Source: Gammaproteobacteria bacterium (GTDB lineage Bacteria; Pseudomonadota; Gammaproteobacteria; Eutrophobiales; Eutrophobiaceae). Taken from it: 64,000 bases of DNA. The notes below the pieces were generated by a model. It worked only from the letters and a program-made list of their open reading frames with translations, did not search any database and was not told the origin of the DNA. Position numbers and translations under genes: made by a program. The DNA is taken from contig CAXMWX010000005.1 of NCBI GenBank assembly GCA_963422205.2, positions 672,001 through 736,000 on the forward strand. Direction: 5' to 3'. Positions 6,205 to 49,331 of this stretch are shown here, piece after piece (positions within the stretch are counted from its first letter, which is position 1; the number at the start of each line of letters is the position of its first letter).

Positions 6205-6207
6205 GAC

Positions 6208-19707: not shown

Positions 19708-19708
19708 A

Positions 19709-23213: not shown

Positions 23214-23216
23214 ATC

Positions 23217-24274: not shown

Positions 24275-24374
24275 GCCCGCGCAACCTTGCACAAAATCGC
24301 TATCTGCCACAAACAGACGAATGCCCTGCAAGCCGCCTTGACTGCCCCTTTTAAGTTGACAGGCGATACCCGGC

Positions 24375-26305: not shown

Positions 26306-26332
26306 GGCTTTACTCAGGCGGGGCAGGCTGTT

Positions 26333-27604
<1,272 letters not shown>

Positions 27605-27859
27605 CTAGCCTAATCGCAGGGATTTTTTCTCCTCCCACTGCCGAGGGGTAAAGGTCTGCATGGACAAGGCATGTATCTCCTGACCCATTTTATCGCCCAA
27701 GGCGGCATAGACGATCTGGTGTTGCTGCACCCTGGACTTGCCGGCAAATTGCTCGCTGACAATCACGGCATCGAAATGGGTCCCATCATCACTCTGCACG
27801 TCAGCCACACAGCCGGGAATGGCGGCCACGAGCATTGCTTCAATGTCATTGGTCTGCAT
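27605..27859 (-). CDS. ibaG: BolA/IbaG family protein
   Basis: HF..IVS..F.GK.RVQQHQIVY.AL...IHALS motif, directly upstream of murA. Confidence 0.88.
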   Translation of the reverse strand: MQTNDIEAMLVAAIPGCVADVQSDDGTHFDAVIVSEQFAGKSRVQQHQIVYAALGDKMGQEIHALSMQTFTPRQWEEKKSLRLG

Positions 27860-27992
27860 GTGTATTCACCTTAGGAAATGGATGGGAAAGTCAGCCCCCC
27901 AGGATAGCGCATCGGATAGCACATCATCATCCCAATCCCCAGGCGGTTAGCGGGAGATGATGCCGGAATTGCGAAGAGAAATTTCAGTAAAA

Positions 27993-28637
27993 CTAATCGA
28001 GCACGGTCTTGGCCAGATTTGCGTTTTTCTCGACCAGCTTCTGGATTAACGAATCAATGCCGTTATTGTTTACCTCCGAGGCGAATGACTGCCGATAGGT
28101 CTTGACCAGATTCACGCCCTGAAATGCCACATTGATCACCCGCCAGTTGCCCGCACTTGGATGCAGCCAGTAATCCACCGGGGTTGCCAGGCCACCGTTA
28201 GCCGAGATGATCTCGGTCTTCACCTTGACGATGCTGGAATTCGGGTTGGAGATGGTTTCGACATAGTTAATGGTCTCATCTGAGTAACCCAGCAGGGCCT
28301 TGGCATAGGTACGCACCAACAGGCTGGTGAACTGACTGGTAAAATCGGCATGTTGTTGGGCCGAGCTGTTTTTCCAAGTGTTTTTACCTAACACGGCCTT
28401 CGACATAAACTCAAAATCAAAGTTGGGCAGGATCAACTCATCAATAACATCATAGATCTTCTCAGGCTGGGCAGCCAGCAGGCCCTGCTCCCGCTTCACA
28501 CGCTCAATAACCCCCTGCACCGTCCCGGTAACGACTTCATGAGGTTCTCTGGCATGCGGCTCTTCGACGGCCGCCAGGGGCGCAGCCGCTATTAAGGATA
28601 TGGACAACAGGGTCACTATCACGGCCCGAACATTCAT
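27993..28637 (-). CDS. mlaC: MlaC/Ttg2D-family periplasmic lipid-binding protein
   Basis: Signal peptide; FDFEFMSKAVLG, LLVRTYA, WRVINV..QGVNLVKTYRQSF and GIDSLIQKL. Confidence 0.9.
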   Translation of the reverse strand: MNVRAVIVTLLSISLIAAAPLAAVEEPHAREPHEVVTGTVQGVIERVKREQGLLAAQPEKIYDVIDELILPNFDFEFMSKAVLGKNTWKNSSAQQHADFTSQFTSLLVRTYAKALLGYSDETINYVETISNPNSSIVKVKTEIISANGGLATPVDYWLHPSAGNWRVINVAFQGVNLVKTYRQSFASEVNNNGIDSLIQKLVEKNANLAKTVLD

Positions 28638-28809
28638 AGTCTATACTCTCCTTGGGGTTAAAAACGCCAATGCCACGGCTAACGGGTGGGCATTTTACCG
28701 ATAGACATGGCATCAAGACAAGCGTTTCCGGCATAAAAGTTCCGCCCAAAGCGCACCATGCCGACTGCATCTATAACCATCATCAGCAGATACTTTGCAA
28801 ACCTCAGGA

Positions 28810-31305
28810 TCAAAATGGCCGCCAAAGCAGGAGCAGCCGGGGTAACAGGGTCAGGGCGGCCAGCAAGGCAATAAACATGGCCAGGGCGGTCAGCAGGCCG
28901 AAGTAAATCGTCGGAATAAAGTTCGACATCACCAGGATAGAGAAACCGATAATGATGGTAATAGCGGTGTAGAAAACCGCCCGACCGATATTGGCATGGC
29001 AGTAGTACATGGTTTTGACATAGTCCTGCCGCTTGCCGTATTCCTCTCTGAAACGATAGATATAATGGATGCTGTTATCAACGGCGATGCCGATGGTGAT
29101 GGCGGCAATGGTGATTGTCATCATATCCAGCGGGATATTAAGCAGGCCCATCAGCCCAAGGATGATCGCCGCCGCCAGCATGTTCGGAATGATACCGATG
29201 ATCGCCAGGGAGATGGAGCGGAACAAGATAACCAGCATCAAGGCGATACCCGCCATGACCAGGCCTAAGGTTTCGATTTGTGATGAGAACAGGCTCTGCA
29301 ACATGTTATTGTACAACACCATCATGCCACTGATTTGAAACTCATCCGGCCCCAAGCCAAGTTCATGTTCAAGATCATAACGTATCTGCTCCAGCAGTTG
29401 TTTACGCCTGAGATCAGGCAGGGAATCCAGTATACGCAGGCTGATCCGTGCTTCATTATTCTCAATGGAGATATAGGGCGTAATGGTGCTGGCCTTGATC
29501 TCATCCGGCATCTTTTTATTGATGACACCTAACTCAAAGGCATCAAAGGCCACGCCTTCGTTTAACTCTTCGGCCAATCGCAACACATTCGCCAGCGACT
29601 GCACCTTGCCCACCGCTTCAAGCCCGTCAAGGTAATCATGCACGGACTTAATGCGATCGATCTTAAATTCCGTAAACCAGGCATCGGCCGGGTCTTCAGG
29701 CTCCTCATCGAACGTGCCAAACAAATCATCTATATCGGAGAACTCATCATCACCACCCTCTGCTGGCTGTGCATCGACAACAGCAGGCCGATGCTCTGAG
29801 TCAAAGTTGATGATGATATCCAGCGGTGTCGTACCGCCCAGCTTCTCATCGATAATTTTCAGGCCCTGGTAGATTTCCGTATCCTTGCTGAAATAATTAA
29901 TAAAACTGTTCTCCACGATCAAACGGCTTATCCCGTAAGCACTGACAACAGCCAGCAGCAGGGCGGCCACCAGCACTTTATTGCCGTGTCTCTCGGTCAG
30001 ACCTGCCAGCACCGCGGTGAACGGCACGGTTTCACTCTCATGCACTTTGGTCTGTTTATCAAACAGGGCCAGCACCGCGGGAAAAACAATAAACGAGGTC
30101 AGGAAGATAACCGCCAGCCCAAGGGTCATCATCCAGCCAAAATCAATCACCGGTTTGATATCGCTGACCACCAGGGAGCCAAAACCTATCATGGTGGTCA
30201 ATGCGGTATACAGGCAAGGCAGGGCCATTTTCTGCGTGGTGTTCAAGACCAGCTGATGTTGCGACATGTCGGGAAAATCACGGCACAACTGGCGGTAACG
30301 CACGATCAGATGCACATTCATGGACATGGTCAAGATCAGCATCAACGAAATAAAATTCGATGAGATGACCGTCACCGGCCGGCCAGCCAGCCCCAGAATA
30401 CCCAGCATGACAGTCACAGCGAACAGGCAGCTTAACAGCGGCAGCAAGACAAATCGGGGCTGGCGAAACACGATCGACAACATGAACACCAAAAAGACAA
30501 ACACACCGGCACCAAACATCGCCAGATCATTTTTAATGAAGGTGATCATGTCATCGGCGATCATCGGTACGCCGCCAAGATAAAGCTCGCCAGAACTTTG
30601 ATAGCGCGCAATGATCGCCCTTATCTGCTCAATATTGCTGTGATTCTCCTTGTCCGCCTGTTGTTTTAATTCATTGTATTGCAGCAGGATATCCGGCAAC
30701 TCGCTGTGCTCTGCCGCCGTCAAACCGTCAAGATTGCGCTTGATCAGCAAGCTGTTTTTCTTTTTCTGTAATTCTGCGAACTCCTCTCTCGGCCGCAGAT
30801 TGATCAACAAGGCGGTGGCATCGCCAGCAGCACTGATGATCAGATCCTTAAAGATCGGGCTGGTGATTAATTCCTCTCTGGCCTTGCCCCTGTCAACAGT
30901 CGGGTCATCCAGCGTGCGGTAGTTCTCAACAATCTCAGACAAGCTGCCACCGACTATCTTCACCAGCGGCACATCCAGCAGGGAGACCACGGACTCGACA
31001 TGGTCCAGCTGGCTTAACTCCTCTCTCAAGCTGGCGATGACATGCAGCGATTCTGGCGAGAACAGATCCGCATCCGGCACAAAGACCACAAACAAAAATT
31101 CCCGGGTGTCATAACGCTCGTTCAAATCTCGAAAAACCCGCAGATCATCATCGCTTTCCAGGATCAGCGAATCTGCCGAGGCATCCAGCCGAAAGTGCTG
31201 GCCGAAATAGGCCATGCTGGCAAATAGCAACACCACCACAAACAAGGTGAGCGTCGGCCTGATGAGAATAATGCGGGCGTAAATTTCAGCAAGGCGGGTC
31301 GGCAT
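28810..31305 (-). CDS. MMPL/RND-family inner-membrane transporter
   Basis: 831 aa with a duplicated architecture (TM, periplasmic loop, 5 TM); GIAVDNSIH proton-relay-type motif and TTMIGFGSL. Confidence 0.88.
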   Translation of the reverse strand: MPTRLAEIYARIILIRPTLTLFVVVLLFASMAYFGQHFRLDASADSLILESDDDLRVFRDLNERYDTREFLFVVFVPDADLFSPESLHVIASLREELSQLDHVESVVSLLDVPLVKIVGGSLSEIVENYRTLDDPTVDRGKAREELITSPIFKDLIISAAGDATALLINLRPREEFAELQKKKNSLLIKRNLDGLTAAEHSELPDILLQYNELKQQADKENHSNIEQIRAIIARYQSSGELYLGGVPMIADDMITFIKNDLAMFGAGVFVFLVFMLSIVFRQPRFVLLPLLSCLFAVTVMLGILGLAGRPVTVISSNFISLMLILTMSMNVHLIVRYRQLCRDFPDMSQHQLVLNTTQKMALPCLYTALTTMIGFGSLVVSDIKPVIDFGWMMTLGLAVIFLTSFIVFPAVLALFDKQTKVHESETVPFTAVLAGLTERHGNKVLVAALLLAVVSAYGISRLIVENSFINYFSKDTEIYQGLKIIDEKLGGTTPLDIIINFDSEHRPAVVDAQPAEGGDDEFSDIDDLFGTFDEEPEDPADAWFTEFKIDRIKSVHDYLDGLEAVGKVQSLANVLRLAEELNEGVAFDAFELGVINKKMPDEIKASTITPYISIENNEARISLRILDSLPDLRRKQLLEQIRYDLEHELGLGPDEFQISGMMVLYNNMLQSLFSSQIETLGLVMAGIALMLVILFRSISLAIIGIIPNMLAAAIILGLMGLLNIPLDMMTITIAAITIGIAVDNSIHYIYRFREEYGKRQDYVKTMYYCHANIGRAVFYTAITIIIGFSILVMSNFIPTIYFGLLTALAMFIALLAALTLLPRLLLLWRPF

Positions 31306-31461
31306 AATGGCTGTCTCTAACTATCATCAGCGACATCGGGGGAACGTGCCTGACAGTTTTTGTTTCTCAAAGTACAGTTATTTTTCTTAACATGGCGCTT
31401 GTATGATAAACTTTATCGTGAAAAAATTAAATTTAACATTAAGCTCAAGATCAAGTCACTG

Positions 31462-31905
31462 ATGATATATCACACGCTGCTCCGTGTTGCCCTGCTGCTG
31501 CTCTTGCCCGCCAGCCTGACAAATAGCCTGGCAGATAGCACGGCAGGAGCGGGGCGTCCGGCCCCGGCAGAGGCAGCCGTGTATTTTATCTCGCCTGTGG
31601 ATGGTGCCATCGTAACCAGTCCGGTACTTATCCAGTTCGGACTGAAAAACATGGGCATCGCCCCGGCCGGCATACAGATGCCGGAGACCGGGCATCACCA
31701 CCTGCTGATCAACACCCCCCTGCCTGCACTCAACCAACCGATACCCAGCGATGATAAACACCGTCACTTTGGCAAGGGTCAGACGGAGGCTGGCATCGAA
31801 CTGCCCCCCGGTGAACACCGGCTACAGCTCCTGTTGGGCGATTTCGCCCACATACCGCACACCCCGCCGGTCATGTCCGAGGTGATCACTATTACGGTGG
31901 AATAA
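31462..31905 (+). CDS. DUF4399-family periplasmic protein
   Basis: Signal peptide from ATG 31462; VYFISP.DG, GHHHLLI, HFGKGQTE and L.PGEHRLQLLLGD..H.PH. Confidence 0.8.
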   Translation: MIYHTLLRVALLLLLPASLTNSLADSTAGAGRPAPAEAAVYFISPVDGAIVTSPVLIQFGLKNMGIAPAGIQMPETGHHHLLINTPLPALNQPIPSDDKHRHFGKGQTEAGIELPPGEHRLQLLLGDFAHIPHTPPVMSEVITITVE

Positions 31906-31916
31906 GTACACTGTAC

Positions 31917-32516
31917 TTAATCAACAGGCAGGACAATCTCGCCCGCAACAATCCCGGCCACCGTGCTGACATACAAGCGGTGTTCCTGCCGCTGCACCCG
32001 GGCGGCCAGATGCTTGATGGTATCCCCCGGCCTGATCTTGACCCGGCACTGGGCCAGCACCGGCCCGGTATCATAATCCTTATCCACCAGATGCACAGTC
32101 GCCCCGGTCTCCCGCTCCCCTGCTGCCAGCACCGCCTGATGGACTTTTTTGCCATACATCCCCCGCCCACCATAGGCTGGCAACAATGACGGATGGATAT
32201 TCACTATCCTGTGCTGATAAGTACGCACCAGGCCGGGCCCGAGTTTTCTCATAAACCCGGCCAGGATGACCAGATCAACGCCATGTTCATCCAACACTCG
32301 CAAGCTGGCCTGTTCCAACGCGGCGGCCTCTGGGTGCGTAACACGGCTGAGGTGGTAAGCGGGAATACCGCTCTCCCTGGCATATTGCAGGGCGCCCGAT
32401 TCGGGGTTGTTACTGATCACAAGCACCGGTTCGGCGGCGATCCTGTGCGCTCGGCAGGCGGCGATGATCGCCTGCATGTTCGAGCCGTTATGCGATGCAA
32501 AAAATCCCAGCTTCAT
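31917..32516 (-). CDS. purN: Phosphoribosylglycinamide formyltransferase
   Basis: Motifs SHNGSNMQAI, LAGFMR, NIHPSLLP and TGATVHLV...YDTGP. Confidence 0.93.
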   Translation of the reverse strand: MKLGFFASHNGSNMQAIIAACRAHRIAAEPVLVISNNPESGALQYARESGIPAYHLSRVTHPEAAALEQASLRVLDEHGVDLVILAGFMRKLGPGLVRTYQHRIVNIHPSLLPAYGGRGMYGKKVHQAVLAAGERETGATVHLVDKDYDTGPVLAQCRVKIRPGDTIKHLAARVQRQEHRLYVSTVAGIVAGEIVLPVD

Positions 32517-33664
32517 ATTATGCTAACCTGAAAGCCCAGGGCACACAGCGTATCCTGCAAGCGATCAGCCTCGCCTGACAACGCCACCTGCCGGTGTGCA
32601 AAACCGTAACGGGGCGGGTAGTTCGCCCGCAGCGCATCAAACAAATCACCGGGGGATGGTGCTGGCAATTCAATCAGACGATGCAAGGCAGCGCTGTCGA
32701 CACGCACATCATAGCTGCTTAACACGGCCTTTTTGATCAGCGTCAGGTCGGTCTTGGCCGTATCAGCGGCCAGCTTTACCTCTGCCAGCGCCGGGATTGG
32801 CAACTCAGGCAAGCGAGGCGGCCTTGGCCGCCCCATACATGCCAGCAACTGATCATATACCATGCAGGTGGCTCGCCGCCGGGCATCCAGGCTGTAGCCG
32901 GCGATATGCGGGGTCGCAATACTCGCCCGCTCAAGCAGGGCGGTATTGATATGCGGTTCATTCGTCCAGACATCCAGCACCACCTGCATCCGGGGCCTTT
33001 GTGCCAGAGAATCCATCAGCGCCTGCTCGTCTATCACCTCGCCGCGGGCGGTGTTAATCAGGATCACAGCGTCTTTCAGCTGCTGCAAAAATGCCGCATC
33101 AACCAGGTGGCGCGTCGGGTAGGGGCCGGTATCTGTCAAGGGGACATGGAGGCTGATAACATCAGAGCGCATTATCTCTTCTATCTCCCGAAATGGATAA
33201 CCACCGGCAGCATCCAGGATAAAAGGATCGTACACATGAACCGATAAGCCCAAGGCCCGTAACTGCCCTGCCAGCGATGAGCCGACATGCCCGTAACCGA
33301 TGATGCCAATCTGCCAGCCGTTCATATCCAGGGCAGCCTGCTCATCAAGACCAAAAAGACTGCTGAGTACATATTCACACACTGCTGGTGCATTGCAGCC
33401 CGGGGCATGGAAAAAACGGATATCCGAGTCTTGCAAATACGCCAGATCAACATGATCAACACCGCTGCTGGTGCTGGCCACATAGCGCACCGGGGTGCCG
33501 GTCAGCAAGGCACGATCCACAGTCGTCACCGTCCTGACCAGCAACACCTCGGCATCGTGCAACACAGACGGCGTTATCTCCCGGCCGGGGACAAGCTCAA
33601 TCTCACCCAGATCAGCAAACACCGCCAAGACATGGGGAATAGCCGCATCGGCGATGATCTTCAT
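32513..33664 (-). CDS. pdxB: 4-phosphoerythronate dehydrogenase
   Basis: Motifs MKIIAD, APGCNA..V.EYV, GIIGYGHVG, SLHVPL, INTARG and ATPHIAGYS. Confidence 0.93.
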   Translation of the reverse strand: MKIIADAAIPHVLAVFADLGEIELVPGREITPSVLHDAEVLLVRTVTTVDRALLTGTPVRYVASTSSGVDHVDLAYLQDSDIRFFHAPGCNAPAVCEYVLSSLFGLDEQAALDMNGWQIGIIGYGHVGSSLAGQLRALGLSVHVYDPFILDAAGGYPFREIEEIMRSDVISLHVPLTDTGPYPTRHLVDAAFLQQLKDAVILINTARGEVIDEQALMDSLAQRPRMQVVLDVWTNEPHINTALLERASIATPHIAGYSLDARRRATCMVYDQLLACMGRPRPPRLPELPIPALAEVKLAADTAKTDLTLIKKAVLSSYDVRVDSAALHRLIELPAPSPGDLFDALRANYPPRYGFAHRQVALSGEADRLQDTLCALGFQVSII

Positions 33665-33774
33665 GCATCAAGATGAAGTAAAAACCCCGACCGTATGCCC
33701 GCATTGCATGGCTGTCGATAAGGATGATGCGGCAAAAGACAAACCGTTCGATATAATGATCACACCGGCGCTGT

Positions 33775-34731
33775 TCAGCGGGCGGCTTCCCGTCCCAGCC
33801 CTTCTTTCTCTACTGGCATCAAATCCTGCTTGCTGATCCCTAAGGCCAGCGTGATTGGGCTGGCAACATAAATGGAAGAGTACGTGCCAATAATCACGCC
33901 GACGATAAGCGCAATGGAGAAAGAATGAATGACCTCGCCGCCATAGAAGAACAGAGCCGACAAAACCAGCAAAGTAGTCAGCGAGGTGATCAAGGTGCGG
34001 CTGAGTGTCTGGTTGAGCGATGTATTGATGATATCGGTGGCAGTACCGGTTCGCATGCGCCTGAAATTCTCCCGGATGCGATCAAACACGACAATGGTAT
34101 CGTTCAGCGAATACCCAATCACGGCCAGGAGGGCGGCCAGCACCGACAGATCAAAATCAAGCTGTGTTAAGGAGAAAAATCCCAGCGTGATCAACACATC
34201 ATGCACCAAGGCGGCAATCGCACCGAGCGAGAACAAACGCTGGAAACGCAAGGCGACATAGATAAAAATACCAAACAGCGCAAAGATCATGGCCAAGCCA
34301 CCATCATTGGTCAACTCATCCCCCACCTGCGGCCCGACAAACTCCACCCGCCGCACCACCACCTCAGGATCCGTGGTACGCAACAGATTGATGATATCCT
34401 CGCTGATATCAGCGGTATTTTTCTGCTCCCTGGGCGCCAATCTGATCAACACATCCCGGGTGGTGCCGAAATACTGGACGATGGCATCGCCGTATTCAGA
34501 ACCGGCCAGCGTCGTTCGGATGGCATCCAGCTCGGCCGTTGCACCATAACCGACTTCAACCAGCGTGCCGCCGGTGAAATCGATCCCCAGATTCAACTGA
34601 CGCAGGGTCAATGATGAGATCGCTACCAGCAACAAGAGGGCTGAAAAGACGGCGGCCAGCTTGCGCCCGGCCATGAAGTCAAAGCGTATTCGAACAGCGG
34701 GTTCTTGCAGTGTATTCATCCGGGTGTTCAT
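33775..34731 (-). CDS. secF: Protein translocase subunit SecF
   Basis: Motifs GIDFTGG, VEFVGPQVG, HDVLI and GYSLNDTIVVFDRIRE. Confidence 0.97.
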   Translation of the reverse strand: MNTRMNTLQEPAVRIRFDFMAGRKLAAVFSALLLLVAISSLTLRQLNLGIDFTGGTLVEVGYGATAELDAIRTTLAGSEYGDAIVQYFGTTRDVLIRLAPREQKNTADISEDIINLLRTTDPEVVVRRVEFVGPQVGDELTNDGGLAMIFALFGIFIYVALRFQRLFSLGAIAALVHDVLITLGFFSLTQLDFDLSVLAALLAVIGYSLNDTIVVFDRIRENFRRMRTGTATDIINTSLNQTLSRTLITSLTTLLVLSALFFYGGEVIHSFSIALIVGVIIGTYSSIYVASPITLALGISKQDLMPVEKEGLGREAAR

Positions 34732-34740
34732 CTAACCTGG

Positions 34741-36117
34741 CTAGATCGACAGCCGGTCAAGTTTTCTGCCGCCATAGATGAGGTTGATGATCGCCCGGGT
34801 CACCATGATGGCGGTGAACATGGAGCAGACAATGCCGAGAGACAAGGTCACGGCAAAGCCCTTGATCGGGCCGGTGCCGAGGCCGAACAACACCAGGGCA
34901 GCGATCAAGGTGGTAATGTTGGCATCGGCAATGGTCGACAGCGCCTTCTCATAGCCAGCATGGATACTGGCCTGGGGCGAGTTGCCGTTGTTGATCTCCT
35001 CACGAATTCGCTGAAAGATCAGCACATTGGCATCCACCGCCATGCCGACTGTCAAGACAATGCCAGCGATGCCGGGCAATGTCAGGGTGGTGGGCAGTAT
35101 TGAGAGCAGCGCCACGATGAACACCAGATTCAAGCTCAGCGCCAGGTTGGCCGCCAGGCCGAAGACCCTGTACCAGAGCAGCATGAAGATCAACACCAGG
35201 ATAAAACCAATCTGCACTGACAGCTTGCCCTTGTTGATATTGTCCTGCCCCAGGCTGGGGCCGACAGTGCGCTCCTCAATGATATAAACCGGTGCCTTCA
35301 GGGCGCCGGCGCGAAGCAACAAGGCGAGATTATTGGCCTCTTGCGAGGAGTCCAAGCCGGTTATCTGGAAGCGGGCGCCGAGTTGCTCCCGGATCGTTGC
35401 CTGATTGATCACCTCTTCAGTGACGACTTTACGCTGCACCAGCTCGCCATCCTGCTCAATCATCTCCAGCTTGTTCTCAATAAAGACCACGGCCATGAGT
35501 TTGCCCACCTCATCAATGGTCTTGTCGGCAAATATTTTTGCCCCCTTGCCATCGAGACTGATGCTCACATTGGGGCTGCCGGATGCCTGATCAAACCCGG
35601 CCCCGGCCTGGGTGATATAATCGCCGGTCAACATGATCTCTTTTTTCAGCAGCACGGGATTGCCCAGCCGGTCCCGGTACAACCTGGCACCGGCCGGCAG
35701 CCGGCCGTCCACCGCATCTGCCGGGTCATGTTCCTGATCGGTCATGCGAAATTCCAGTGTGGCTGTTGCCCCCAGAATGACCTTCGCCCGTGCGGTGTCC
35801 TGCACACCGGGCAACTGCACAACGATACGATCCGTCCCCTGCTGCTGAATGATCGGCTCGGCAACACCAAGCTCATTGACGCGCTTTTTCAAGACCACAA
35901 TATTCTGTTTTAATGCCTCACGCTGTATCTCGTTCAGCGACTGCTCCCTGATCTCTACCTGCAACTGATGTTCATCAGCGGCGGCATCCAACTCGGTCAA
36001 TACCAGTTCGGGATAATCATCTTGTATCTTCTCGATACCGGCGCGCAAATGCCCATCATCACGAAAGCGTATCAACAGGCCGCCATCCCGGTTGCGGGTG
36101 ACTGTGCGGTAACGAAT
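34741..36117 (-). pseudogene. secD: Protein translocase subunit SecD, 5'-truncated at the junction
   Basis: Motifs RVNELGVAEP, RIVVQLPGVQD, EERTVGPSLG and GMAVDANVLI. The frame stays open to IRYRTVTRNRDGG at 36117, then hits TAG (36118-36120) and AT-rich DNA. The N-terminal TM1 region is absent. Confidence 0.93.
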
Positions 36118-36120
36118 CTA
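36118..36120. other. Bacterial / animal DNA junction
   Basis: Abrupt change from coding-dense, moderate-GC sequence to AT-rich, transposon-rich, intron-containing sequence; no N gap. Confidence 0.9.
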
Positions 36121-37203
36121 TTTTTAGTTGGTTGTCAGCAGTTTAATGATCTCAACTGCTTGAACTCTTTTCGTTATTGATGACGGTTTCTACAGAATGA
36201 TTTATTTTTGGCATTAACGCCACAGCACCTCACACAATGCAGTAATTTCGACCTGTTTAAGGAGTGACGACTTGATCTTTCTTTTGTTTGTTTTTGCTTT
36301 TTTTTCACTAATTGGATTTTATAACATTGAGTGTCTACTAGAAGAGGAAAGAGGAAGAAAGTAAGCTACAAATAACCTAAAAAGACACTCTCCTCATACA
36401 AAGGAAAATTAGGAGAATAAACTGCGAAAGAAGGACGATAAAATTACCCAGTATGATTTACTTCAGGTGCCGAATTTGTTGCTGTGGAATGTGATTTGAA
36501 TAGATTGGGTTCCTTTCTCAACGACTCATGCGTAAAACAAAATGCGGTAAATAACGCACAATTACGACGGCGTTAAATTCTTTAATTACTACAATATTTT
36601 TGTTTCATCGATCAACTCACATGGGTCTATACCAAGCCTACAAACCAGTTTATGTGATTGAATCGTTTTTGTCATTACATTTGCGCACACTTGGGAATGC
36701 ATCTGTATTTTAAATGTCCGTAATCACGGGATTATTGAAATACTGGACTAGTGTAATATGTTTCAATAATTTTACGTTTGGAGTTACAAAATATGCAATA
36801 GTATATCGACATAAAAAATTATACGATGTTGAAATCACTGAATATTCAAAAGCAAAATTAGCAACACGTAGAAGCTCCATTTGATTATTTCTTTGCTGAA
36901 CGTAATGTTAAGTTCTCACAAAATAGGATGAGTCTGTGTGTAGGCCTAGGCGTCTAGTCTAGTAGTGCAAAGATATAAAACAACCCAGAACCGAAAATGA
37001 ACGCAATAGTTGAGGTATAACTCCCAATGAAACCCAAATACCTAAAATTTAGGCTGGAATGGAAGAAATTCTTCAAATTTAACCTTCCAACTCAAGAAAA
37101 CTCTTGAAACCGCCTAAAATGAAAAACGCGATTGAATCTATTAGAAAAGCCAAGTGAGACCTACCGCTTTGAATCACTGCACAACATCCAGTCATAGCGA
37201 AAT

Positions 37204-37772
37204 CAGGGTTGCCAGGCCAGTTGCGCAAAAAATGCCAAACAGCGTATAAAAATATGCCAAACGGAACCAAAATATGCCAAACAACCTTCAACAAGCGCAA
37301 ATCCTCTGATAACCTAACGCAATACTTTTTACACAAAAGGCCACATATGAAAAAATGGGTCGCACAGATTGGAAGAGCAAAAGAAAGGGTCTTCACATCC
37401 GCAGATGTCCTATTTTTTCCACTAAAAATCGGTGAAGAGCAAAAAAAGAAAAAGTCTACGGCTTGATTCACAACTGGAGTTTATATTTCTGTAAGTGCCC
37501 GCGAGCCGCATAAAATGGTTTCGCGGGCTGCAATTTTCCCACCACTGACCTAAGCAAAGACGGGTCATCCTATTTTTAGGATTTTGCGGACGCAGTTGCC
37601 AAATACAAAAAAAATGCCAAGCACTGTTGAAAAAAATGTCAAATTCATAAAAAATGCCAAAAATATGCCAAACTATGACCAATATGCCAAACAAAAATTT
37701 TCGTGCCAAACCACTTTAAAAAATGCCAAATTTTTGGAATTTGGCATAAAAAATGCCAAACTGGCAACTGTG
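37204..37772. mobile_element. Non-autonomous hAT-type element (MITE)
   Basis: TIR CAGGGTTGCCAG / CTGGCAACTGTG; exact 8-bp TSD AGCGAAAT (37196-37203, 37773-37780); many subterminal ATGCCAAA repeats. Confidence 0.88.
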
Positions 37773-38458
37773 AGCGAAATAACAAGGCTTCTTAATACAG
37801 TAGGGGAGAACCTCCGACATTGGGACAATTTTTCTATGGGACGCTTTGTACTAGGTCTACACGCTTCACTGATCACGCGAGAATTGATTGCGTAATTTCT
37901 GTTCCTTCGCCTTACTGTTTCAGTGAATTACACGAAGTTATAGGGTCTTGTGAGCAGAAATGGCTGATTTAGCAAGGAAAGTTTATTTTTGGGGGATCAA
38001 AGTAAATATTTTATCGTATTTTGTTTTAAAATAGTCTTCAGCGATATTGATTCACAAGGCTGGCACGATGTCAGGTAACAGCAGGGAACTTGAAGCTAGA
38101 ATCGAGATAAAAAGCGAGTGCCTACTGTGCACTCAGGTGAAATCAGCAGCGATTTTTTAAAAATGACGGTCATATCAAACATTGGGACAAATGCATGTCT
38201 TCATCAATAGGGCGCTGTCCCATTGTTGGAGTGCATGTATATAGGTGCAACTTTTGTTTACATTCTTACTTTTCACGCTAAACTGTCACTGTTGTTATTT
38301 CCATGATTTTGCTTGTTGATTTCAATGGAATCTGAACTTCAACCAACATTCTCCCGAGGCTCGCGTGAAAAGGGGAAAACTGATCCCACTACCATGAGAG
38401 CAGCAATTGAAAAAGCATTGCTAACGGGGAAGATCAGGCCAATAATTGCAAGAGAGTA

Positions 38459-39647
38459 GGGGAGAGTGGGGTTGGTTGAATCGGGGGTTGGTTGAATTAG
38501 TAAACCCTATTCCGAGACTGAAGTCACAAGTCCTGACCTGTCTACATATTTTTGCTTTGCCAGAAGTAGTCTTCGTGCATACTGAATGAAGGATGGATTG
38601 AGCAAGGCTACGTATGCCTTTTTTCGGTAGGTGCGTAAAAACATCTAAAAGTAACTTTTGATATTTCCGCAATTTTTCATTTTCTGCTTGTAAAGTCAAA
38701 ATAATTCTTGCAACTAAGGATTTTATTTACAGAACATAACGTAGGCTACTAACAGGACCAATATGGTTTTAACTTGATAAAAACTTTCTTAGGCTAGATT
38801 TTAGCTAAAATATTAAAGCATGGCGCCTTGGGGTTGGTAGCATCAGATGATTCAACCAACCCCAATAGGGAACTTTGCTAACAGCTTGACTAAGCAACAA
38901 GTTTTAATACTGCAACTAGAACTTTTCAAAAGGCTTACTGGTAGTTGAACTATAACGGGTGTTTATGAAAGATTAGTTGAATAAGATAATCATGGTGAGA
39001 AATTGGAAAGCCAAGACAAATCAAAGGAAGGATGCGGATGTAGTTAAGCGGGCTGCGCGTGAGGTTCTGGAGAATAAAATGCCAGTTCGTGGGGCAGCAA
39101 AGTTTTGGAGTTTCCTGCTACGCAATGAACCGATTCATACATGGCATTAAAGCTCGAAGATTGGTTAAAAAGTGCAATAGTTGGGCCCATGAATTATGCA
39201 CCGACAGAGGCTAATTTATCTGCACCTCTTAAATGGTCATAAGCGCCAACTTAGAGTAGAATGTTTATCATGTAGTGTGCGCTACAAACACTGACTTTTC
39301 GTTGTGTGCGCTATTTATCGTGTTCGTTGCTGTTAGTTAATGTGTTGAGCATAATACAATGAACTAAAAAATAAAACAAATATTTGGTAATTGAAAGAAA
39401 TTGCAAATCGAAAGTGATTTAACCAACCCCATCGTACGATTCAACCAACCCCGTGTGGGCAAAAAATACCACCTCTAGGAAAATGCGTTTGAATCACTCA
39501 ATAAAAACTAATAACCACCAAAAAAGTATTTCATATTAAAGAGAGACGCCCTGATTTGATTTGATTAATTTTTACTGATAACGGATCTTCGCAGCAGCCG
39601 CAAGTGAAGAAAAACTGCAAGTTGAGTCAACCAACCCCACTCTCCCC
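38459..39647 (+). mobile_element. Internally deleted pogo-like element nested in the 37798-41183 element
   Basis: Perfect 21-bp TIR GGGGAGAGTGGGGTTGGTTGA / TCAACCAACCCCACTCTCCCC with TA TSD; residual HTH ORF from 38992 (MVRNWKAKT...KRAAREVLENKMPVRGAAK). Confidence 0.88.
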
Positions 39648-39689
39648 TATAATGTTGCTAGACAAACTTTGAAAAACTGGATAGATACT

Positions 39690-39889
39690 ATTATAACTGG
39701 ATGTTGTAGACTCTTTCATTGGGTATCGTTGTTTGGGGCCAGTCGCCTGCTAAAAATAGGGCACAACCTAGAAAAGAGATGAAGTCGAGATGTCCAGGTA
39801 AAGCAATGCAAAAAAGAGTCTTTACAGTCTGGAATGAGTTTAGCCTGGATTGGCCGTGCGTAGCAAGGCTGATGAGACTTTCGTTATAG
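39690..39889 (-). mobile_element. 200-bp insertion, probably the 3' end of a 5'-truncated non-LTR retroelement
   Basis: Flanked by the 12-bp direct repeat TGGATAGATACT (39678-39689, 39890-39901); no TIRs. Strand is inferred. Confidence 0.55.
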
Positions 39890-40200
39890 TGGATAGATAC
39901 TGTTGTGACAAAAAGGCACAGGCACATGGAACCCAAGACAACCTACTGAACGAACCAAATTATGCAGTTCGTGTTTTGTTTGCCAGCGCTGTTCTGTCAA
40001 GAACTTTTAAGAAATGAACTCTCTAAATTACATTCAATGTTTTGGGCTATATTAACTTTGCTTTAATGCTGATGCTAATTCTTTTCTGTTGTTTTTCAAC
40101 TTTGTTTTTAAAACACTACACGACATGCAGTAGCCTAATATCTCGTTATAGCTATGGTGATCTGGCGCGTCCGTAAATTTTTTGATTTGCAACCGTAAAA

Positions 40201-40400
40201 AAATTTTATCTTCATTATACTTGCGGTAATACGCCGAAGCGTCTAACGAGTGGCGGGGCCCATTTCCACGGCTTCGCGCCTGGGCAACATAGCTCCGAAG
40301 AAACGTCGCAACAGTGGCGAGCCGTTGGCGACACTGTGCTGATTTGACCGGCCCGGGAATCGAACTTCATACCTTCCGAACCGATAGCGTACGCTTTGCA
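40201..40400 (-). mobile_element. tRNA-derived SINE, family A
   Basis: B-box GTTCGATTC on the minus strand, followed by a body shared with copies at 48961-49325 and 60894-61325. Confidence 0.85.
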
Positions 40401-40439
40401 TCCGCAGCTTGGTATAATCATTATACCAGTAGCTCTAAG

Positions 40440-40607
40440 CAGGGGCGTCGCCAGCTCATCGGGATCGAGGAAGAGGGAAAAGTCAACTGTAGAGGGGCCA
40501 GGGACCTTGTTTCAGTCTATTTTTTTTTAATTCCTTTTTCGATCAGGGGGGAAAGCTGCCAATTTGGAGACCGAGCCCCCTTGGCCTTCCCGCTGACAAC
40601 GTGCCTG
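40440..40607. mobile_element. Small degenerate hAT-type MITE
   Basis: CAGGGGCGTCGCCAG / CTGACAACGTGCCTG ends; diverged 8-bp TSD GCTCTAAG/ACTCTAAA. Confidence 0.55.
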
Positions 40608-43600
40608 ACTCTAAAGTGTTGCAAACGTTACGTAATACATTGAAACGTTAAAAGGAAGTTCAACTGAAGACTGTGGTGTTTTAATTTTGATAATCGATGT
40701 TCAAAGTTTTCTATTTCGTTATATTGTTAATTGAATTTCATTTTATGTCTGACTCTTTCAAGTACAAGACAGATCGTTAGCCGGTGGGGGCATGACACTA
40801 CAGTAAGCATCTCTGTCTGCGTCACCAATTGCTTTAAATACCTAGTTATCTTGTTTGATGGCGAAAAAGACCTTTACAATACGCCAAAGGTTTGTTTCGA
40901 TCTACATTGCCTGTTTGTGCCGTTCCAAACTTCATGTCCCATTAATAAAACTGCATTGTCCCGTTGCATGAACCACTTCCACCAGTGGGACAATTTTAAA
41001 CCTCTCAGAAAAATGATCACCTGTTTTAACTCAGCGTAGATAGAGAAATCCAACCAAGTGCTATTTGAAGAGTACATCAATGACCATGGTTGCATCTAAA
41101 AAAAACGCTGACTTGCCGTAATCTTCACTCACAAATGACCAAAATGTAAAAATTGTCCCAATGATGGAGGTTCTCTTCTACAGTATTTGAAATGAAATAT
41201 GATGTAGCTTCACGGAGCAACGGCGATTTAGCTTTTTGGAACAAATTGGCGTAGGAAACTTTTTCAAAAATAAAAAAGTTTTTCATTACCATAGTAGGCC
41301 TACTAGGTATTATTAAAAAAAAGTTTTCAGTAAAGACTATTTATTGCCGAGATTTATGAAGTCCAACGAAGATTGAGTTCATCGAGGGTGATGGTGGTGT
41401 GGTCTTTTCGAATGTAAGTTGTTTTGATGAAAATTATAGCCGTTGCTTTCGGGCTTGTTTTTTGTGGCTGAATACTGAGGTAAACCTTCGTTCAGAAATG
41501 TGACTTGAACTGGTAGAGCTGACTGTCTGCAACGAAACAACATCCATTTGAAGCTGCGGTAATTTCAATATGTCTGTGAGCAAAAGCCGTGAACAAGCCT
41601 ATTGCACGCAAATAACTTGAGATGCTGTAGGCCTTGCCTCAATTTATTGTTTCTAAGGGAAAAGAAGGCCGTACAATGATACTGTGCGTTAGTTTCTGCC
41701 CAAAGTAAATGCAAGAAGTGACTCGCCATCGCCGCAGCGTTCTTATACAATGGTGTTGTTTCGCGGAGGTGGACAATTGGGCACCGCTTATTGCTCGTCT
41801 CAGGGTAAAACAAAACCATAAAGAAAATGAAAGAATGAATATTTTAATCAGAAAAAACTTCAAATTTTTGCATAAAAAAACATTTATAGCCCTATCGTTC
41901 AGATCAACTTTTAATATAAAATTTTAAAAAACCTCCACAGCCTGTTTCTCGCTAAGCGCGGTCCTCAGGAGGTATCTTATTCAAATAGAATTGAGCTCTC
42001 TGCTGTTCGTACCACAGATCGCCGATACAGTTTATAACACTAGATATTCACCATTCAGTTCAAGCTTTACGGTATATCAATAGCTTACATAATCGACTTA
42101 GAATACTCACTCACCGGCAAGCGCATCCCATTCTGGTATTTTCAATTTTAGTACAGGTAATACCAGCTCTTCTGTCATTTCTGACTATTGCTCGCCCAAG
42201 CGTGTTCCCTTGTAATTCTGGAGGAGCAGCTGCATTTGCAAGAAAAAATTTTGTACCACGAGTGCCATTTTTGAAATTATTTTTGCAAGTAGCCTAAACC
42301 TAATTGCTTCATGTCGTTGACGTATTGCAAACTTCACCAGTTCCTCAATAGCATTATTTTCATAACACGGCTGCCACGTTATTAATAAAGTGACAAGTGA
42401 TATATTTTGAGTTTACAATCCTATGATGAAACCGTCTTAGTTCTGCACTTATGATCATTTGGTGTGTGAATTTATTGCAACACGTGACGAGAGATATTTA
42501 GAATATGCAGAACTTTCGTTGTTTATCGCAGGTTTTGATTAGAATTGTTTGATATGCTGAAACCATTCTCGAACTTTCTAGAACAGTGGTTCTTAAACCG
42601 GGTTTGATCGAACCCCCGGGGTTCGATGAGTCGGTTCCAGGGGGTCGGCGGACATAAAAAAACTGAAGGCTCCTACCATTACGTAGAAAAACGCAGCGTG
42701 ATCTGATTTTTTTATTTTGCAAAAAACTAATGTGTAGTCTTTGGTGATTATTGATTTGTAACATCAATTAACACAAGTAAGTTTTTCATAACTTGGCAAA
42801 TTCTGCGTTTTACACAACCTTGGGTGTGCACTGCGCAACTACAAAATAAGTACTATTATTACGTAACTTGATTGAAGAAACAATGAATGTGAATTTATCC
42901 AAGGAGCGGCAAGCAGTCCTAGCACTCTGTGTTGGGTATTGTGTTAGTAATGTCGGAGCACATTCTCTACTTTTTATGTTTGGAGGTTATGCAGTAGTTT
43001 GTCGTTCGCGTCAGTTGAAGTTCAGAACAAGAGCGCGCACTTTATCGAGATAAATTAATCATAAATAAGGCTAATAGCCTAGTACTGTTTATATTTTACT
43101 TGAACTGTAACCCTTTTGTTAAGAGACTGCAGTTGGTAGATTTTAATTAGAAAACTTTAGGTAAGCAACCGCAACAGGGGCGGATTAAGAGATTGCGGGG
43201 CCCGGGGCAGATAAGAGTGCGAGGCCCCTAATTATGAACGGCGAAACCAACTAATGTCCTTTTGGATATTAAAGTTTATTGACATCACAATCAACCAGCA
43301 ATTTTATTAAGTTTATCAAACTCAGGTTTGGGTCGTGCTAAAAATATATTAATGTTGACAACAAATTTTCATTTTGACTATGAATGTAGATCAAAGAGGT
43401 TGAGTCCAATTTGCTGCATTGACATATTAAAAAAAGTTAAATGTTTTAATTTTGTTAAAAATTCACTTTCAAAAAAGGCCAAGCATGGAACAAAATTTTC
43501 GCACTGTTTCAAAGGCGAAGATATACAACACCAAAAAACAAAATAATAAACAACATAGAGAGTGCTATACGCTAAGGCTAGTTGCTGTGCTGGCTTCTTC

Positions 43601-43930
43601 GGTTTGATTATCATAGCTCAAAGATTGAATGGATGTAGAATCAGCTAACTGCTCGTTTGCATTGGAAAAGAGGCGACTTATTGCCTTCAACTTGCCTTCA
43701 ACTTCTCTTAATTTTACCTCTCTTTCCTCTGTTTTTACGTGTTTGACTTCCACTCTCATACTTTTGACCCAAGTCACGAATTCTTCCAGTCGTGAGCACT
43801 TTTATAAGAAACACTCTGCAGTGGTCACGGAAGCTCAACTATCTTAATTTTCAAATAGGCCTATTGCTATAATTATGAGTACCGATAAGTTTCTGTAATT
43901 CCAAAATTTGCCTAACTTTGGGCTAAGTTT

Positions 43931-44241
43931 AACAGCTCAGATGGCCAAGTGGTTAGAGCGTTTGCCTCGGGAGCTGTAGCTTTGGGTTCGATTCCAATTC
44001 GGGTCAAACCAATGACTTTAAACTTTAAAATTGGTATTCACAGCTTCTCTGCTTGACGCTCAGCATGAAAGGGACAGTGTGGAAAACAGGTTGGCAAGTT
44101 TACTTGTTGTGCCGTTGGGAAGGGCACTTAGCGGGATTCCCCCATCTTAGTGTGGTAGGCAGAGGCTGGCAACTCCTAAGCGAGCTCGTTATTGCGCATT
44201 GATCGCTTTCGCGTGATAGGAGGATGAATATGCAACTAAAT
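43931..44241 (+). mobile_element. tRNA-derived SINE, family B (near full length)
   Basis: A-box TGGCCAAGTGG and B-box GGTTCGATTCC. Body is shared with copies at 44924-45056, 46405-46500, 50300-50590, 51638-51768 and 60114-60222. Confidence 0.85.
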
Positions 44242-44707
44242 TCGAAGTACAAAAGTGCGAAGATCCGACACCCCGAAGCCTTTAAAGTTATTACGTTGTG
44301 ATAAAAGTATTTTACTTACGGCTTTAAGGCATTAACGTCGTGACTTCAAAAAAACTTACGACTTCAATGCATTTTCGTTGTACTAATACGTAAAAGTGCA
44401 ACTATGAACCGGCCTTAATTTTCTGGTATCATGCATTATCGCCTGCTATAGCTCATTAAGTTTCCAGCGAATTGAGATACAGCTTGTAATGAAATAGGCA
44501 AATAGCTTATAAATTTATTGAATATTTTTGAACAACTTGTAAATTTAAGCAAATTTAAATTTGTCTGCAATCTGCACGCTTCTAAATATAGGCCAGAAGG
44601 CCAAAGCGTTTTTAAAAATTTGACGGTCGATTGCAGCCTTTAATGTAAATGCAATTATACCAGTCACTTTGTACTGTGACATTACAGTTACCTTGCAATA
44701 TTGCGAG

Positions 44708-45313
44708 CAAGGGTGGAAACTCAAATCTAAACCTCAAAACCGGGTTTTAAAGAAACCAAAACTGAAACTGACTCCTACTTGGCCAAATTTTTGAAAACCT
44801 AAACTTGAACTTAAACCGTTTTTTCTCGAAACGTCAAAACCGAAACTGAAACTAAAATTTGTTCAAAAATTTCTAAGGTTTTGGGTTTTAAAAGTTGTCA
44901 CCACCATCATTACCAGTAGAGTTCCTTTAATGCTAAGCGTCAAATAGAGAAGCTGTGCATACCAATTTTTGAGTCTTTGGTTTCACCGGACTCGGAGGTA
45001 CACCCAAGTCAACAATTTCTGAAGCACTTGCTCTCCTCACTCGGCCATCTGAGCTGCCACTTATCATCGCAATAAAACAAAAACGCCAAGAAGTAGCGCA
45101 TTTAAATAACCCGTATTCAAAATAAAATAGATTTATTGGATGAAACTTAGACCGAAACTGAAACCCAGAAACCGAAGCTGTGCGTATGCAAAACTGAAAC
45201 CTAATTTTTAGCAGTCGTGAAACCAAACCAAAACTGAAACTGGACATATGGGCTTTAACACATCGACACTGAAACTGACACCCTAACGCCAAGTAGCTAG
45301 GTTTCCACCCTTG
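44708..45313. mobile_element. hAT-type MITE nested in 43175-45553, itself containing a SINE B fragment
   Basis: TIR CAAGGGTGGAAAC / GTTTCCACCCTTG; TSD ATTGCGAG/ATTGCAAG; internal AAACTGAAAC repeats. Confidence 0.82.
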
Positions 45314-49325: not shown

Positions 49326-49331
49326 TGCTTA

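What the first reader, a model, noticed from the sequence alone, without database searches (positions are those of the whole stretch)
36060..36300. Gap-free fusion of a gammaproteobacterial chromosome segment to animal nuclear DNA, inside secD
Seen: the secD frame runs upstream to IRYRTV (36117) and is then replaced by TAG and AT-rich sequence. To the left are operons with overlapping starts and stops. To the right are TIR/TSD transposons, SINEs and GT-AG spliced exons. Inference: this is either a chimeric contig joining host and symbiont (or contaminant) DNA, or a very recent bacterial insertion of at least 36 kb into an animal chromosome. I favour the artefact. None of the dense host transposons has entered the bacterial half, and the lesions I can resolve there are indels of the kind long-read errors produce. 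A real insertion of this size would be an important result.
Basis: partly seen in the sequence, partly recalled or inferred. Interest (0 to 1): 0.9.

Follow-up and report, generated by a model that had tools for sequence, protein, structure and literature searches.

The report
False join of symbiont and host DNA
A bacterial chromosome piece and sea-squirt-like animal DNA sit end to end in one contig, but independent assemblies of the same material carry each side straight past the joint, so it is an assembly artefact and not a gene transfer.

Summary
At window 36118/36119 a dense, 54% GC gammaproteobacterial segment stops in the middle of secD, whose first ~165 codons are missing. It continues without a gap into 38% GC, ORF-poor, repeat-rich eukaryotic DNA.

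The window is C7:672001-736000 of a 2.99 Mb, 14-contig bacterial assembly. C7 holds 708 kb of bacterium followed by a 128 kb eukaryotic tail. The tail carries a full-length IFT80 gene (closest named hits are ascidians) and reverse-transcriptase fragments.

The joint is false. Contigs from two public runs were laid on the window.
- The bacterial contig stops matching at 36119 and runs on for 32,715 further bases.
- The host contig stops matching at 36119 and runs on for 961-963 further bases.
- No listed piece bridges the joint.
- The bacterium:host depth ratio is 0.38 in one run and 13 in the other.

The secD 5' end and yajC are absent from the whole assembly, and their expected neighbour sits at the end of contig C12. 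A second contig, C11, starts with ~3 kb of host-like DNA fused inside pstS.

Biological interest is low. The practical value is that about 131 kb of animal DNA sits in a "bacterial" genome scored 0.12% contaminated.

The parts
1..36119 (.). Gammaproteobacterial chromosome segment, the right end of 708 kb of bacterial DNA in contig C7. Genes in order: murC-murG-ftsW-murD-mraY-murF-murE-ftsI (cell-wall cluster), rsmH, mraZ, rsmI, a broken lpoA-like gene, gmhA/diaA-type isomerase, dolP-like, sspB, sspA, cytochrome bc1 genes, degS/htrA-type protease, hisC (frameshifted), hisD, hisG, murA, mlaC/hpnM-like, HAE3 RND transporter, purN, pdxB, secF, secD'.
   Evidence: NCBIfam hits. ftsW, murD, mraY and murF are named from their position in the cluster, not scanned. 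GC. Contigs of X1 (depth 8.42) and X2 (depth 538) match 26118-36119 with 0 differences.
34741..36117 (-). secD 3' fragment: 458 codons, lacking about 165 N-terminal codons including the first transmembrane segment.
   Evidence: TIGR01129 452 bits; NF009545 positions 172-596 of 604. Alignment to relatives starts at IRYRTV. PF13721 SecD-TM1 has no match anywhere in the assembly.
33775..34731 (-). secF, intact.
   Evidence: TIGR00966 316 bits, profile positions 1-278 of 279.
36118..36119 (.). The false joint. Bacterial contigs match through 36119 and host contigs match from 36119, so one base is shared and no filler or adapter lies between.
   Evidence: table 8, records 1, 2, 9 and 10.
36120..64000 (.). 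Eukaryotic (ascidian-like) nuclear DNA, the start of a 128,198-base tail that runs to the end of C7.
   Evidence: GC 0.34-0.43. No ORF over 130 aa in 37000-64000. No Pfam hit for the five longest window ORFs tried. IFT80 and RVT_1 lie further along the same tail. Host-depth contigs in X1 and X2.
38448..39658 (.). Candidate DNA transposon with 35-nt terminal inverted repeats (86% complementary, 1141 nt apart).
   Evidence: pair I3. In X2, two contigs skip 38456-39648 (1191 bases, depth 137), table 5.
39458..40791 (.). Very high-copy interspersed repeat of the host.
   Evidence: Summed word depth 1.3-3.4 x 10^5 in both runs, against 22-54 for most single-copy host pieces (tables 2 and 8). Intra-tail copies. 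A diverged copy lies at C11:1181-1289.
43460..45460 (.). Second block of very high-copy host repeats.
   Evidence: Summed word depth 0.7-2.9 x 10^5; up to 10 intra-tail copies; inverted pair I1.
14229..16084 (+). lpoA-like gene broken into at least three reading frames with in-frame stops; relatives have one open frame of 629-678 aa.
23217..24300 (+). hisC with one frameshift near 24110. The ORF stops at profile position 296 of 349 and the C-terminal motif continues in another frame.

Best explanation
The joint at 36118/36119 is a false join made when mixed long-read data from an animal host and its bacterial associate were assembled. The whole contig was then binned as bacterial because 85% of it is bacterial.

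In the living material the bacterial chromosome continues from this point into the rest of secD and yajC, and most probably on to the genes now at the end of contig C12. The host chromosome continues into other host DNA.

Shown: both sides continue independently in two runs; no listed piece bridges the joint; and the depths of the two sides are uncoupled.

Inferred: how the false join arose. The most likely cause is one or a few chimeric reads, formed by fragment-to-fragment ligation or template switching during library preparation, that the assembler used at a place where the bacterial path was already broken. The join has no filler and shares one base. A second contig end, C11, carries about 3 kb of host-like DNA, which is shorter than a typical long read (read length is from general knowledge). 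I could not establish which sequencing platform or assembler was used.
For: 1. Independent assemblies (window 26118-46117, runs X1 and X2: two samples, one study).
- The bacterial contig in X2 is record 9: 86,498 b, depth 538, + strand. Its positions 43782-53783 match window 26118-36119 with 0 differences, and the record has 32,715 further bases that do not match the window.
- The bacterial contig in X1 is record 1: 52,042 b, depth 8.42. It matches the same stretch and also has 32,715 bases beyond it.
- The host contig in X2 is record 10: 2,097 b, depth 41.1. It matches 36119-37254 with its positions 962-2097, leaving 961 bases to the left that are unlike the window.
- The host contig in X1 is record 2: 2,099 b, depth 22. 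It leaves 963 such bases.
- No listed piece has letters on both sides of 36119.

2. Depth. Bacterium:host is 8.42:22 in X1 and 538:41.1 in X2, a 34-fold change in ratio. In X1 the bacterial side is shallower than the host side, which a germline insertion cannot give.

3. Missing continuation. The assembly has one secD, no SecD-TM1 and no yajC, although it is 97.97% complete.

4. Synteny. In all 4 relatives examined, yajC lies directly upstream of secD. In the same-genus relative G001 the next gene is 85% identical to the 515-aa gene at C12:37955-39499, which lies 1.5 kb from the end of C12 and points outward.

5. Single copy. Contamination is 0.12%, so there is no second copy of the 708 kb segment.

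6. A second case in the same assembly. C11:1 to ~3064 is 29-48% GC. It shares repeats with the C7 tail at 78-92% identity and is fused inside pstS, whose last ~70 codons occur nowhere in the assembly.

7. No host repeat occurs in bacterial DNA.
Against: Contigs show presence, not absence. A junction carried by a small share of molecules would be dropped from them, so a rare somatic or low-frequency integration is not excluded (limits stated in the output).

I could not see the letters of the continuations, so it is inferred, not shown, that the 32,715 bases begin with the secD 5' end.

Both runs belong to one study, and one of them may be the sample the assembly came from, so they are not fully independent of it.

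Two host-bacterium junctions (C7 and C11) are also what the two ends of a single very large insertion would look like. The test I could make of that is only weak. The host contig runs 961-963 b left of the joint. The C11 host piece has 31-mers that recur in the held host-like DNA (C11:1-3100 and the C7 tail) at 2505-2535, 2390-2429, 2190-2274 and 2109-2175, which should have stopped such a contig earlier.

One row table 5c (X2, 40336 to 34576, depth 55.4) links a high-copy host repeat to a place in secF. Its side length is not shown. I read it as a short chance match among more than 27,000 repeat contigs, and one search found no explanation for it.

The protein database holds no full-length SecD of this organism.
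Confidence: 0.93

Rival explanations
1. A real but rare or private integration: symbiont DNA joined to this host locus in only some cells, or only in the one individual from which the assembly was made. The two public runs would then show the empty host site and the free bacterial chromosome.
For: Contigs cannot exclude minor variants (notes). The joint has no filler and one shared base, as end-joining would give. The assembly has two host-bacterium junctions, as the two ends of one insertion would. The bacterial side is identical to the free bacterium, as a very recent event would be.
Against: Both runs carry both sides straight through the site, and no listed piece ends in a branch there. 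In X1 the host piece is identical to the window (0 differences over 1,136 b), yet the bacterial depth is only 8.42 against 22. There is no second copy of bacterial markers. The two host flanks do not appear to be adjacent. At several hundred-fold bacterial depth, chimeric library molecules are, from general knowledge, far commoner than megabase-scale insertions.
Confidence: 0.04
2. A fixed germline lateral transfer of at least 708 kb of bacterial DNA into the animal's chromosome, comparable to the large Wolbachia insertions in insects.
For: Only the gap-free contig itself.
Against: The uninterrupted host locus is present at host depth in both runs, and the bacterial side is shallower than the host side in X1. 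No decay relative to the free bacterium over 10 kb. No host transposon in 708 kb. The segment supplies single-copy markers of a 98% complete genome with 0.12% contamination.
Confidence: 0.005
3. The low-GC part is bacterial after all: a large genomic island, prophage or plasmid integrated in secD.
For: Low-GC islands of 2-4 kb occur elsewhere in the bacterial contigs.
Against: The tail holds a complete IFT80 gene, 70% identical to that of an ascidian, found only in eukaryotes. It also holds RVT_1 retroelement ORFs, has five-fold fewer long ORFs, carries repeats with summed word depth 10^5, and has host-like rather than bacterial depth in both runs.
Confidence: 0.002

Closest known systems
Chimeric contigs and non-target DNA in metagenome-assembled genomes, the problem addressed by GUNC (bioRxiv 10.1101/2020.12.16.422776 / PMC8201837; I saw only the search listing and the start of the abstract)
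   Same: One contig combines DNA of two unrelated lineages, and marker-gene contamination scores miss it (0.12% here).
   Different: Here the foreign part is eukaryotic host DNA, which carries no bacterial marker genes. It is attached at contig ends (C7 and C11) rather than being mis-binned as whole contigs. I did not run GUNC.
The tardigrade 'extensive HGT' claim, later explained as contamination (bioRxiv 10.1101/033464 and PMC4824900; listings and starts of abstracts only)
   Same: Bacterial and animal DNA in one assembly invites a transfer claim. The test that settles it is the same: coverage on each side and independent data across the junctions.
   Different: That case concerned bacterial contigs inside an animal assembly. 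This is animal DNA inside a bacterial assembly, physically joined in one contig.
Genuine large bacterial insertions in animal chromosomes (Wolbachia in insects and nematodes; recalled from general knowledge, no paper consulted here)
   Same: A long stretch of bacterial chromosome lies next to host DNA with a breakpoint inside a bacterial gene.
   Different: Real insertions are supported by spanning reads at host depth and are inherited. Here the junction is absent from two runs' contigs and the depths are uncoupled.
Chimeric reads and misassemblies in long-read metagenome assembly (PMC10984382, PMC11392814, 10.1101/2025.09.05.674543; listings and starts of abstracts only)
   Same: This is the proposed cause: a chimeric molecule or graph misjoin in a host-plus-microbe long-read data set.
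   Different: The platform and assembler of this assembly are unknown to me, so the mechanism is inferred.

Membership tests
Assembly chimera (false join) | Each side continues into different sequence in independent assemblies of the same kind of material | tested here: met
   table 8. Bacterial records run 32,715 b past 36119 in both runs. Host records run 961 and 963 b past it on the other side.
Assembly chimera (false join) | No independent read or contig bridges the joint | tested here: met
   no listed piece has letters on both sides of 36119, and no joint at 36119 appears in the rows shown (71 joint rows and 799 loose-end rows were not shown). Only contigs were available, not raw reads.
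Assembly chimera (false join) | Depth of the two sides is uncoupled | tested here: met
   8.42 against 22 in X1; 538 against 41.1 in X2.
Assembly chimera (false join) | Support by only one or a few chimeric reads in the source data | not testable with these tools
   The raw reads of the source assembly were not available, and read laying is capped at one call (used).
Bacterium-to-animal lateral gene transfer (nuclear insertion) | Junction present in independent data at about host depth | tested here: not met
Bacterium-to-animal lateral gene transfer (nuclear insertion) | Depth of the inserted DNA is at least that of the host locus | tested here: not met
   X1: bacterial 8.42 against host 22, with other single-copy host pieces at 27-32.
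Bacterium-to-animal lateral gene transfer (nuclear insertion) | Signs of residence in the host genome: decay relative to the donor, host transposons, introns | tested here: not met
   0 differences from the free bacterium over 26118-36119. No host repeat in bacterial DNA. The broken lpoA-like and hisC genes lie outside the stretch laid, so their state in the free bacterium is unknown.
Bacterium-to-animal lateral gene transfer (nuclear insertion) | The two host flanks are adjacent in the empty site | tested here: inconclusive
   recurring 31-mers in the C11 host piece argue against adjacency with the C7 flank, but I could not read the letters of the empty-site contig.
SecD (protein translocase subunit, TIGR01129) | Match above the curated cut-off | tested here: met
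   452 bits against a cut-off of 244.4.
SecD (protein translocase subunit, TIGR01129) | Full length, with the N-terminal transmembrane segment (PF13721) | tested here: not met
   The window copy covers positions 172-596 of 604. PF13721 has no match in the assembly. The best hits in the protein database carry it.
IFT80 (marker that the tail is eukaryotic) | IFT80 second beta-propeller and the TPR domain, both complete | tested here: met
   PF23335 positions 1-287 of 287, 353.6 bits; PF23387 positions 1-141 of 147, 202.2 bits. Best named hit Clavelina lepadiformis, 70%.

The most novel reading that the evidence does not exclude
The joint records a real, very recent end-joining of symbiont chromosomal DNA to an ascidian chromosome. 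It would be present in a minority of cells, or in one individual only, and therefore invisible in the consensus contigs of the two runs examined. The second junction, at C11, would be the other end of the same event.
Probability: 0.03. Interest if true: 0.85.

Novelty: not a real feature. Interest (0 to 1): 0.1.

Why it matters
There is no biological discovery here. The junction is not a lateral gene transfer, and the truncated secD is not a real gene state.

The finding matters for data hygiene. An assembly that the genome search holds as its genome for this species, scored 97.97% complete and 0.12% contaminated, carries about 131 kb of animal DNA: 128 kb at the end of C7 and about 3 kb at the start of C11. 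That DNA includes a full-length IFT80 gene and retroelement reverse transcriptases. Automated surveys could read these as "eukaryote-like genes in a bacterium", or as transfer between host and symbiont. They could also report secD, yajC and pstS as truncated or lost.

The case also shows that marker-gene contamination scores do not see host DNA. Laying independent run contigs across a suspect joint settles the question quickly.

Tried and rejected
1. A full-length SecD of this organism in the 5.8-billion-protein collection. Only the window's own truncated 444-aa call is 100% identical; the next best is 76%. So the direct proof of "reads continue into full-length secD" was not obtained this way.

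2. The continuation on C12. queA and tgt are there, but yajC and the secD 5' end are not. The C12 end holds chemotaxis-receptor/PAS-like ORFs (named by eye from the translations) instead. The link between C12 and C7 therefore rests on synteny with G001.

3. Predicting the gap size from the 32,715-b continuation. If C12 is the continuation, the first recurring 31-mer (C12:9569-9612) would put the gap at about 1.3 kb, which would fit secD 5' plus yajC plus a short remainder. But the left end of the X2 contig (C7:654337) lies at no recurring 31-mer, so contig ends are not predictable. I give this no weight.

4. An empty host site in public metagenome contigs: an exact 38-nt host-flank pattern gave 0 hits.

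5. Explaining the odd 5c row (40336 to 34576) by shared short words: only 17-nt or shorter chance-level matches. It remains unexplained.

6. Rfam at gathering thresholds on 30000-64000 gave 0 matches, and ARAGORN on the window gave 0 genes.

7. Pfam on five window host-side ORFs gave 0 families.

8. A fold-back artefact at the C7 end. The last 689 b are an inverted copy of 834636-835324 with a 303-b spacer. The spacer argues against a simple missed-adapter palindrome, and the ORFs there had no Pfam hit. Left open.

9. My first translation was out of frame and is not used.

11. Papers: I saw only search listings and the starts of abstracts. I read no paper and no supplement.
Full report
WHERE THE WINDOW LIES. 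The window is C7:672001-736000 of an assembly of 2,988,056 bases in 14 contigs, scored 97.97% complete and 0.12% contaminated. Thirteen contigs have 52-56% GC throughout. C7 (836,315 b) has 50-59% GC for its first 708 kb and 35-40% for its last 128 kb. The finding sits at that step.

THE OBSERVATION.
- The + strand reads ...ggtaacgaat ct attttt... at 36110-36125.
- The minus-strand frame 34741-36117 is open for 458 codons and is SecD. TIGR01129 scores 452 bits against a cut-off of 244.4, and the match covers positions 172-596 of the 604-position full-length model.
- The next codon upstream is TAG.
- In a MAFFT alignment with the SecD of three relatives, similarity starts exactly at IRYRTV and there is none upstream.
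- In 19 of the 20 relatives the best SecD match lies in an open frame of 569-697 aa; the 20th (G018, 62% complete) gave only a weak E 6.6e-6 match in a 1047-aa frame.
- GC falls from 0.50-0.57 to 0.34-0.43.
- Long stop-to-stop ORFs fall from 247 to 45 per 128 kb.

THE LEFT SIDE. It is an ordinary gammaproteobacterial chromosome. It holds the cell-wall/division cluster (murC, murG, murE, ftsI, rsmH and mraZ were scanned; ftsW, murD, mraY and murF are named by position), rsmI, a gmhA/diaA-type isomerase, dolP-like, sspB, sspA, Rieske and cytochrome b genes, a DegS/HtrA-type protease, hisC, hisD, hisG, murA, an MlaC/HpnM-like protein, an HAE3 RND transporter, purN, pdxB, secF and secD. The closest SecD proteins are 75-78% identical and come from uncultured Gammaproteobacteria MAGs.

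Two genes are damaged. hisC has one frameshift near 24110. An lpoA-like gene at 14229-16084 is split over three frames with in-frame stops, where relatives have one open frame of 629-678 aa.

THE RIGHT SIDE. It is eukaryotic.
- The tail has a 774-codon uninterrupted ORF at C7:783226-785547 with complete IFT80 domains. Its protein-atlas score is 1.00 to IFT80 clusters that are 100% eukaryotic.
- The best named relatives of this ORF are ascidians: Clavelina lepadiformis 70%, Ciona intestinalis 65%, Ciona savignyi 62%.
- Two tail ORFs carry RVT_1 reverse-transcriptase domains.
- 21% of the tail is repeated within itself.
- In the window, 39458-40791 and 43460-45460 belong to families whose summed contig word depth is 10^5, against roughly 20-50 for the single-copy host pieces.
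- There are inverted-repeat pairs of the kind that bound DNA transposons. One of them (38448-38482 with 39624-39658) coincides with contigs in X2 that skip the 1191 bases between.
Rfam and ARAGORN found nothing.

IS THE JOINT REAL? A 10-kb query centred on the joint found two public runs, X1 and X2 (two samples, one study, one organism label), holding 0.76 and 0.73 of its sampled words. Their contigs were laid on window 26118-46117.

On the bacterial side:
- X2 record 9 (86,498 b, depth 538) matches 26118-36119 without a difference at its positions 43782-53783, then has 32,715 more bases that do not match the window.
- X1 record 1 (52,042 b, depth 8.42) does the same, with the same 32,715 bases beyond.

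On the host side:
- X2 record 10 (2,097 b, depth 41.1) matches 36119-37254 with its positions 962-2097, leaving 961 bases to the left that are not the window's bacterial DNA.
- X1 record 2 (2,099 b, depth 22) leaves 963.

No listed piece lies on both sides. So in both runs the bacterial chromosome and the host chromosome each pass through the point where the window joins them.

The depth ratio of bacterium to host is 0.38 in X1 and 13 in X2. In X1 the bacterial side is shallower than the host side, which rules out a germline insertion in that sample, even a heterozygous one.

THE MISSING CONTINUATION. The assembly has one secD, no SecD first-transmembrane domain and no yajC. In all four relatives I examined, yajC lies directly upstream of secD. 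In the same-genus relative G001, the gene upstream of yajC is 85% identical, over 208 residues, to the C-terminal part of the 515-aa gene at C12:37955-39499. That gene follows queA and tgt, points towards the end of C12, and ends 1.5 kb from it. The true neighbour of the secD fragment is therefore most probably the end of C12. The secD 5' end and yajC would lie in an unassembled or discarded gap of roughly a kilobase. I could not read the 32,715-b continuation to prove this. A search for a full-length SecD of this organism found none.

A SECOND JUNCTION.
- BLAST of the 128-kb tail against the whole assembly hits nothing in bacterial DNA, but it does hit C11:1181-2542 at 78-92% identity.
- C11:1-3000 has 29-48% GC, and bacterial genes (pstS, phoR, phoB) begin after it.
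- pstS, on the minus strand from 3799, matches relatives up to ...SGVRAV at about 3065 and then diverges. It covers profile positions 3-231 of 295, where relatives have frames of 326-391 aa.
- The rest of pstS is nowhere in the assembly.
So a second contig end carries host-like DNA fused inside a bacterial gene. This piece is only about 3 kb, shorter than a typical long read (from general knowledge), which fits a chimeric read overhanging a contig end.

Two junctions could also be the two ends of one huge insertion. In that case the two host flanks would be adjacent in the empty site. The only test open to me argues weakly against adjacency. The empty-site contig runs 961-963 b to the left. 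The C11 host piece contains 31-mers that recur in the held host-like DNA (C11:1-3100 and the C7 tail), starting 530 b from its junction, and these should have ended such a contig sooner.

MECHANISM. What is shown is that the join does not exist in the bulk of the molecules of two samples. What is inferred is how it arose. The most likely cause is a chimeric library molecule or a graph misjoin in a mixed host-plus-microbe long-read assembly. The false path was kept because the true bacterial path was already broken nearby, and the contig stayed in the bacterial bin because 85% of it is bacterial. The join has no filler letters and one shared base, so there is no adapter remnant. I could not establish the platform or the assembler.

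WHAT REMAINS OPEN.
- Contigs drop rare variants, so a low-frequency somatic or private integration is not excluded. I put it at about 3-4%.
- One unexplained row (table 5c, X2, 40336 to 34576, depth 55.4) links a high-copy host repeat to a place in secF. Its side length is not given, and one search found nothing that explains it. Among more than 27,000 repeat contigs I take it to be a short chance match.
- Both runs are from one study, and one of them may be the source of the assembly.

COMPARISON WITH KNOWN CASES. This is the familiar class of chimeric contigs and non-target DNA in genome bins (GUNC, listing only). It is the mirror image of the tardigrade case, where bacterial DNA in an animal assembly was first read as transfer (listings only). 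It resembles genuine Wolbachia-type insertions only in appearance (recalled). The defining tests for a real insertion were made and not met: spanning support, depth at least that of the host, and signs of residence.

VERDICT.

Noticed in passing
G000 C11:1-3064 (locus L103): A second host-like piece, about 3 kb at 29-48% GC, sharing repeats with the C7 tail at 78-92% identity. It is fused without a gap inside pstS, whose last ~70 codons are missing from the whole assembly. phoR and phoB follow intact.
   Followed up: yes
G000 C7:783226-785547 (+), locus L097:727-3048: A full-length IFT80 gene as one uninterrupted 774-codon frame. The three closest database proteins (83%, 79% and 74% identical; 757-760 aa; unnamed ENA contigs of 0.67-2.2 Mb) have about the same length. 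This suggests an intron-less IFT80 in this group of ascidians.
   Followed up: partly
window 14229-16084 (+): An lpoA-like gene broken into at least three frames with in-frame stops, while its neighbours are intact. Relatives have a single frame of 629-678 aa. It is either a real pseudogene of a host-associated bacterium or a local assembly problem. No read data were laid there.
   Followed up: partly
window 24100-24125 (+): A single frameshift in hisC. The ORF ends at profile position 296 of 349, and the conserved C-terminus continues in another frame.
   Followed up: partly
G000 C12:37955-41005: The end of contig C12 (queA, tgt, a 515-aa membrane protein, then chemotaxis-receptor/PAS-like ORFs, named by eye from the translations, running off the end) is the expected chromosomal neighbour of the truncated secD, judging by synteny with the same-genus relative.
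   Followed up: yes
G000 C7:834636-836315: The last 689 bases of C7 are a 99.7% inverted copy of 834636-835324, with a 303-base spacer, and run exactly to the contig end. This is either a natural inverted duplication of a host element or a read-level fold-back. The ORFs there have no Pfam match.
   Followed up: partly
G000 contig ends C6/C9, C3/C5, C2, C13: Several bacterial contig ends overlap one another: C6 end with C9 end, 290 b at 100%, inverted; C3 start with C5 end, through an array of ~560-b tandem units. The bacterial assembly could probably be joined further.
   Followed up: no
window 38448-39658: A candidate 1.2-kb DNA transposon with 35-nt terminal inverted repeats. Two contigs of run X2 skip exactly this stretch. 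They may be an empty allele or other copies of the flanks.
   Followed up: partly
window 40336 and 34576 (table 5c, run X2): One contig row links a very high-copy host repeat to a place in secF, with 17 other letters between, at depth 55.4. The side length is not shown. It is unexplained and probably a short chance match.
   Followed up: partly
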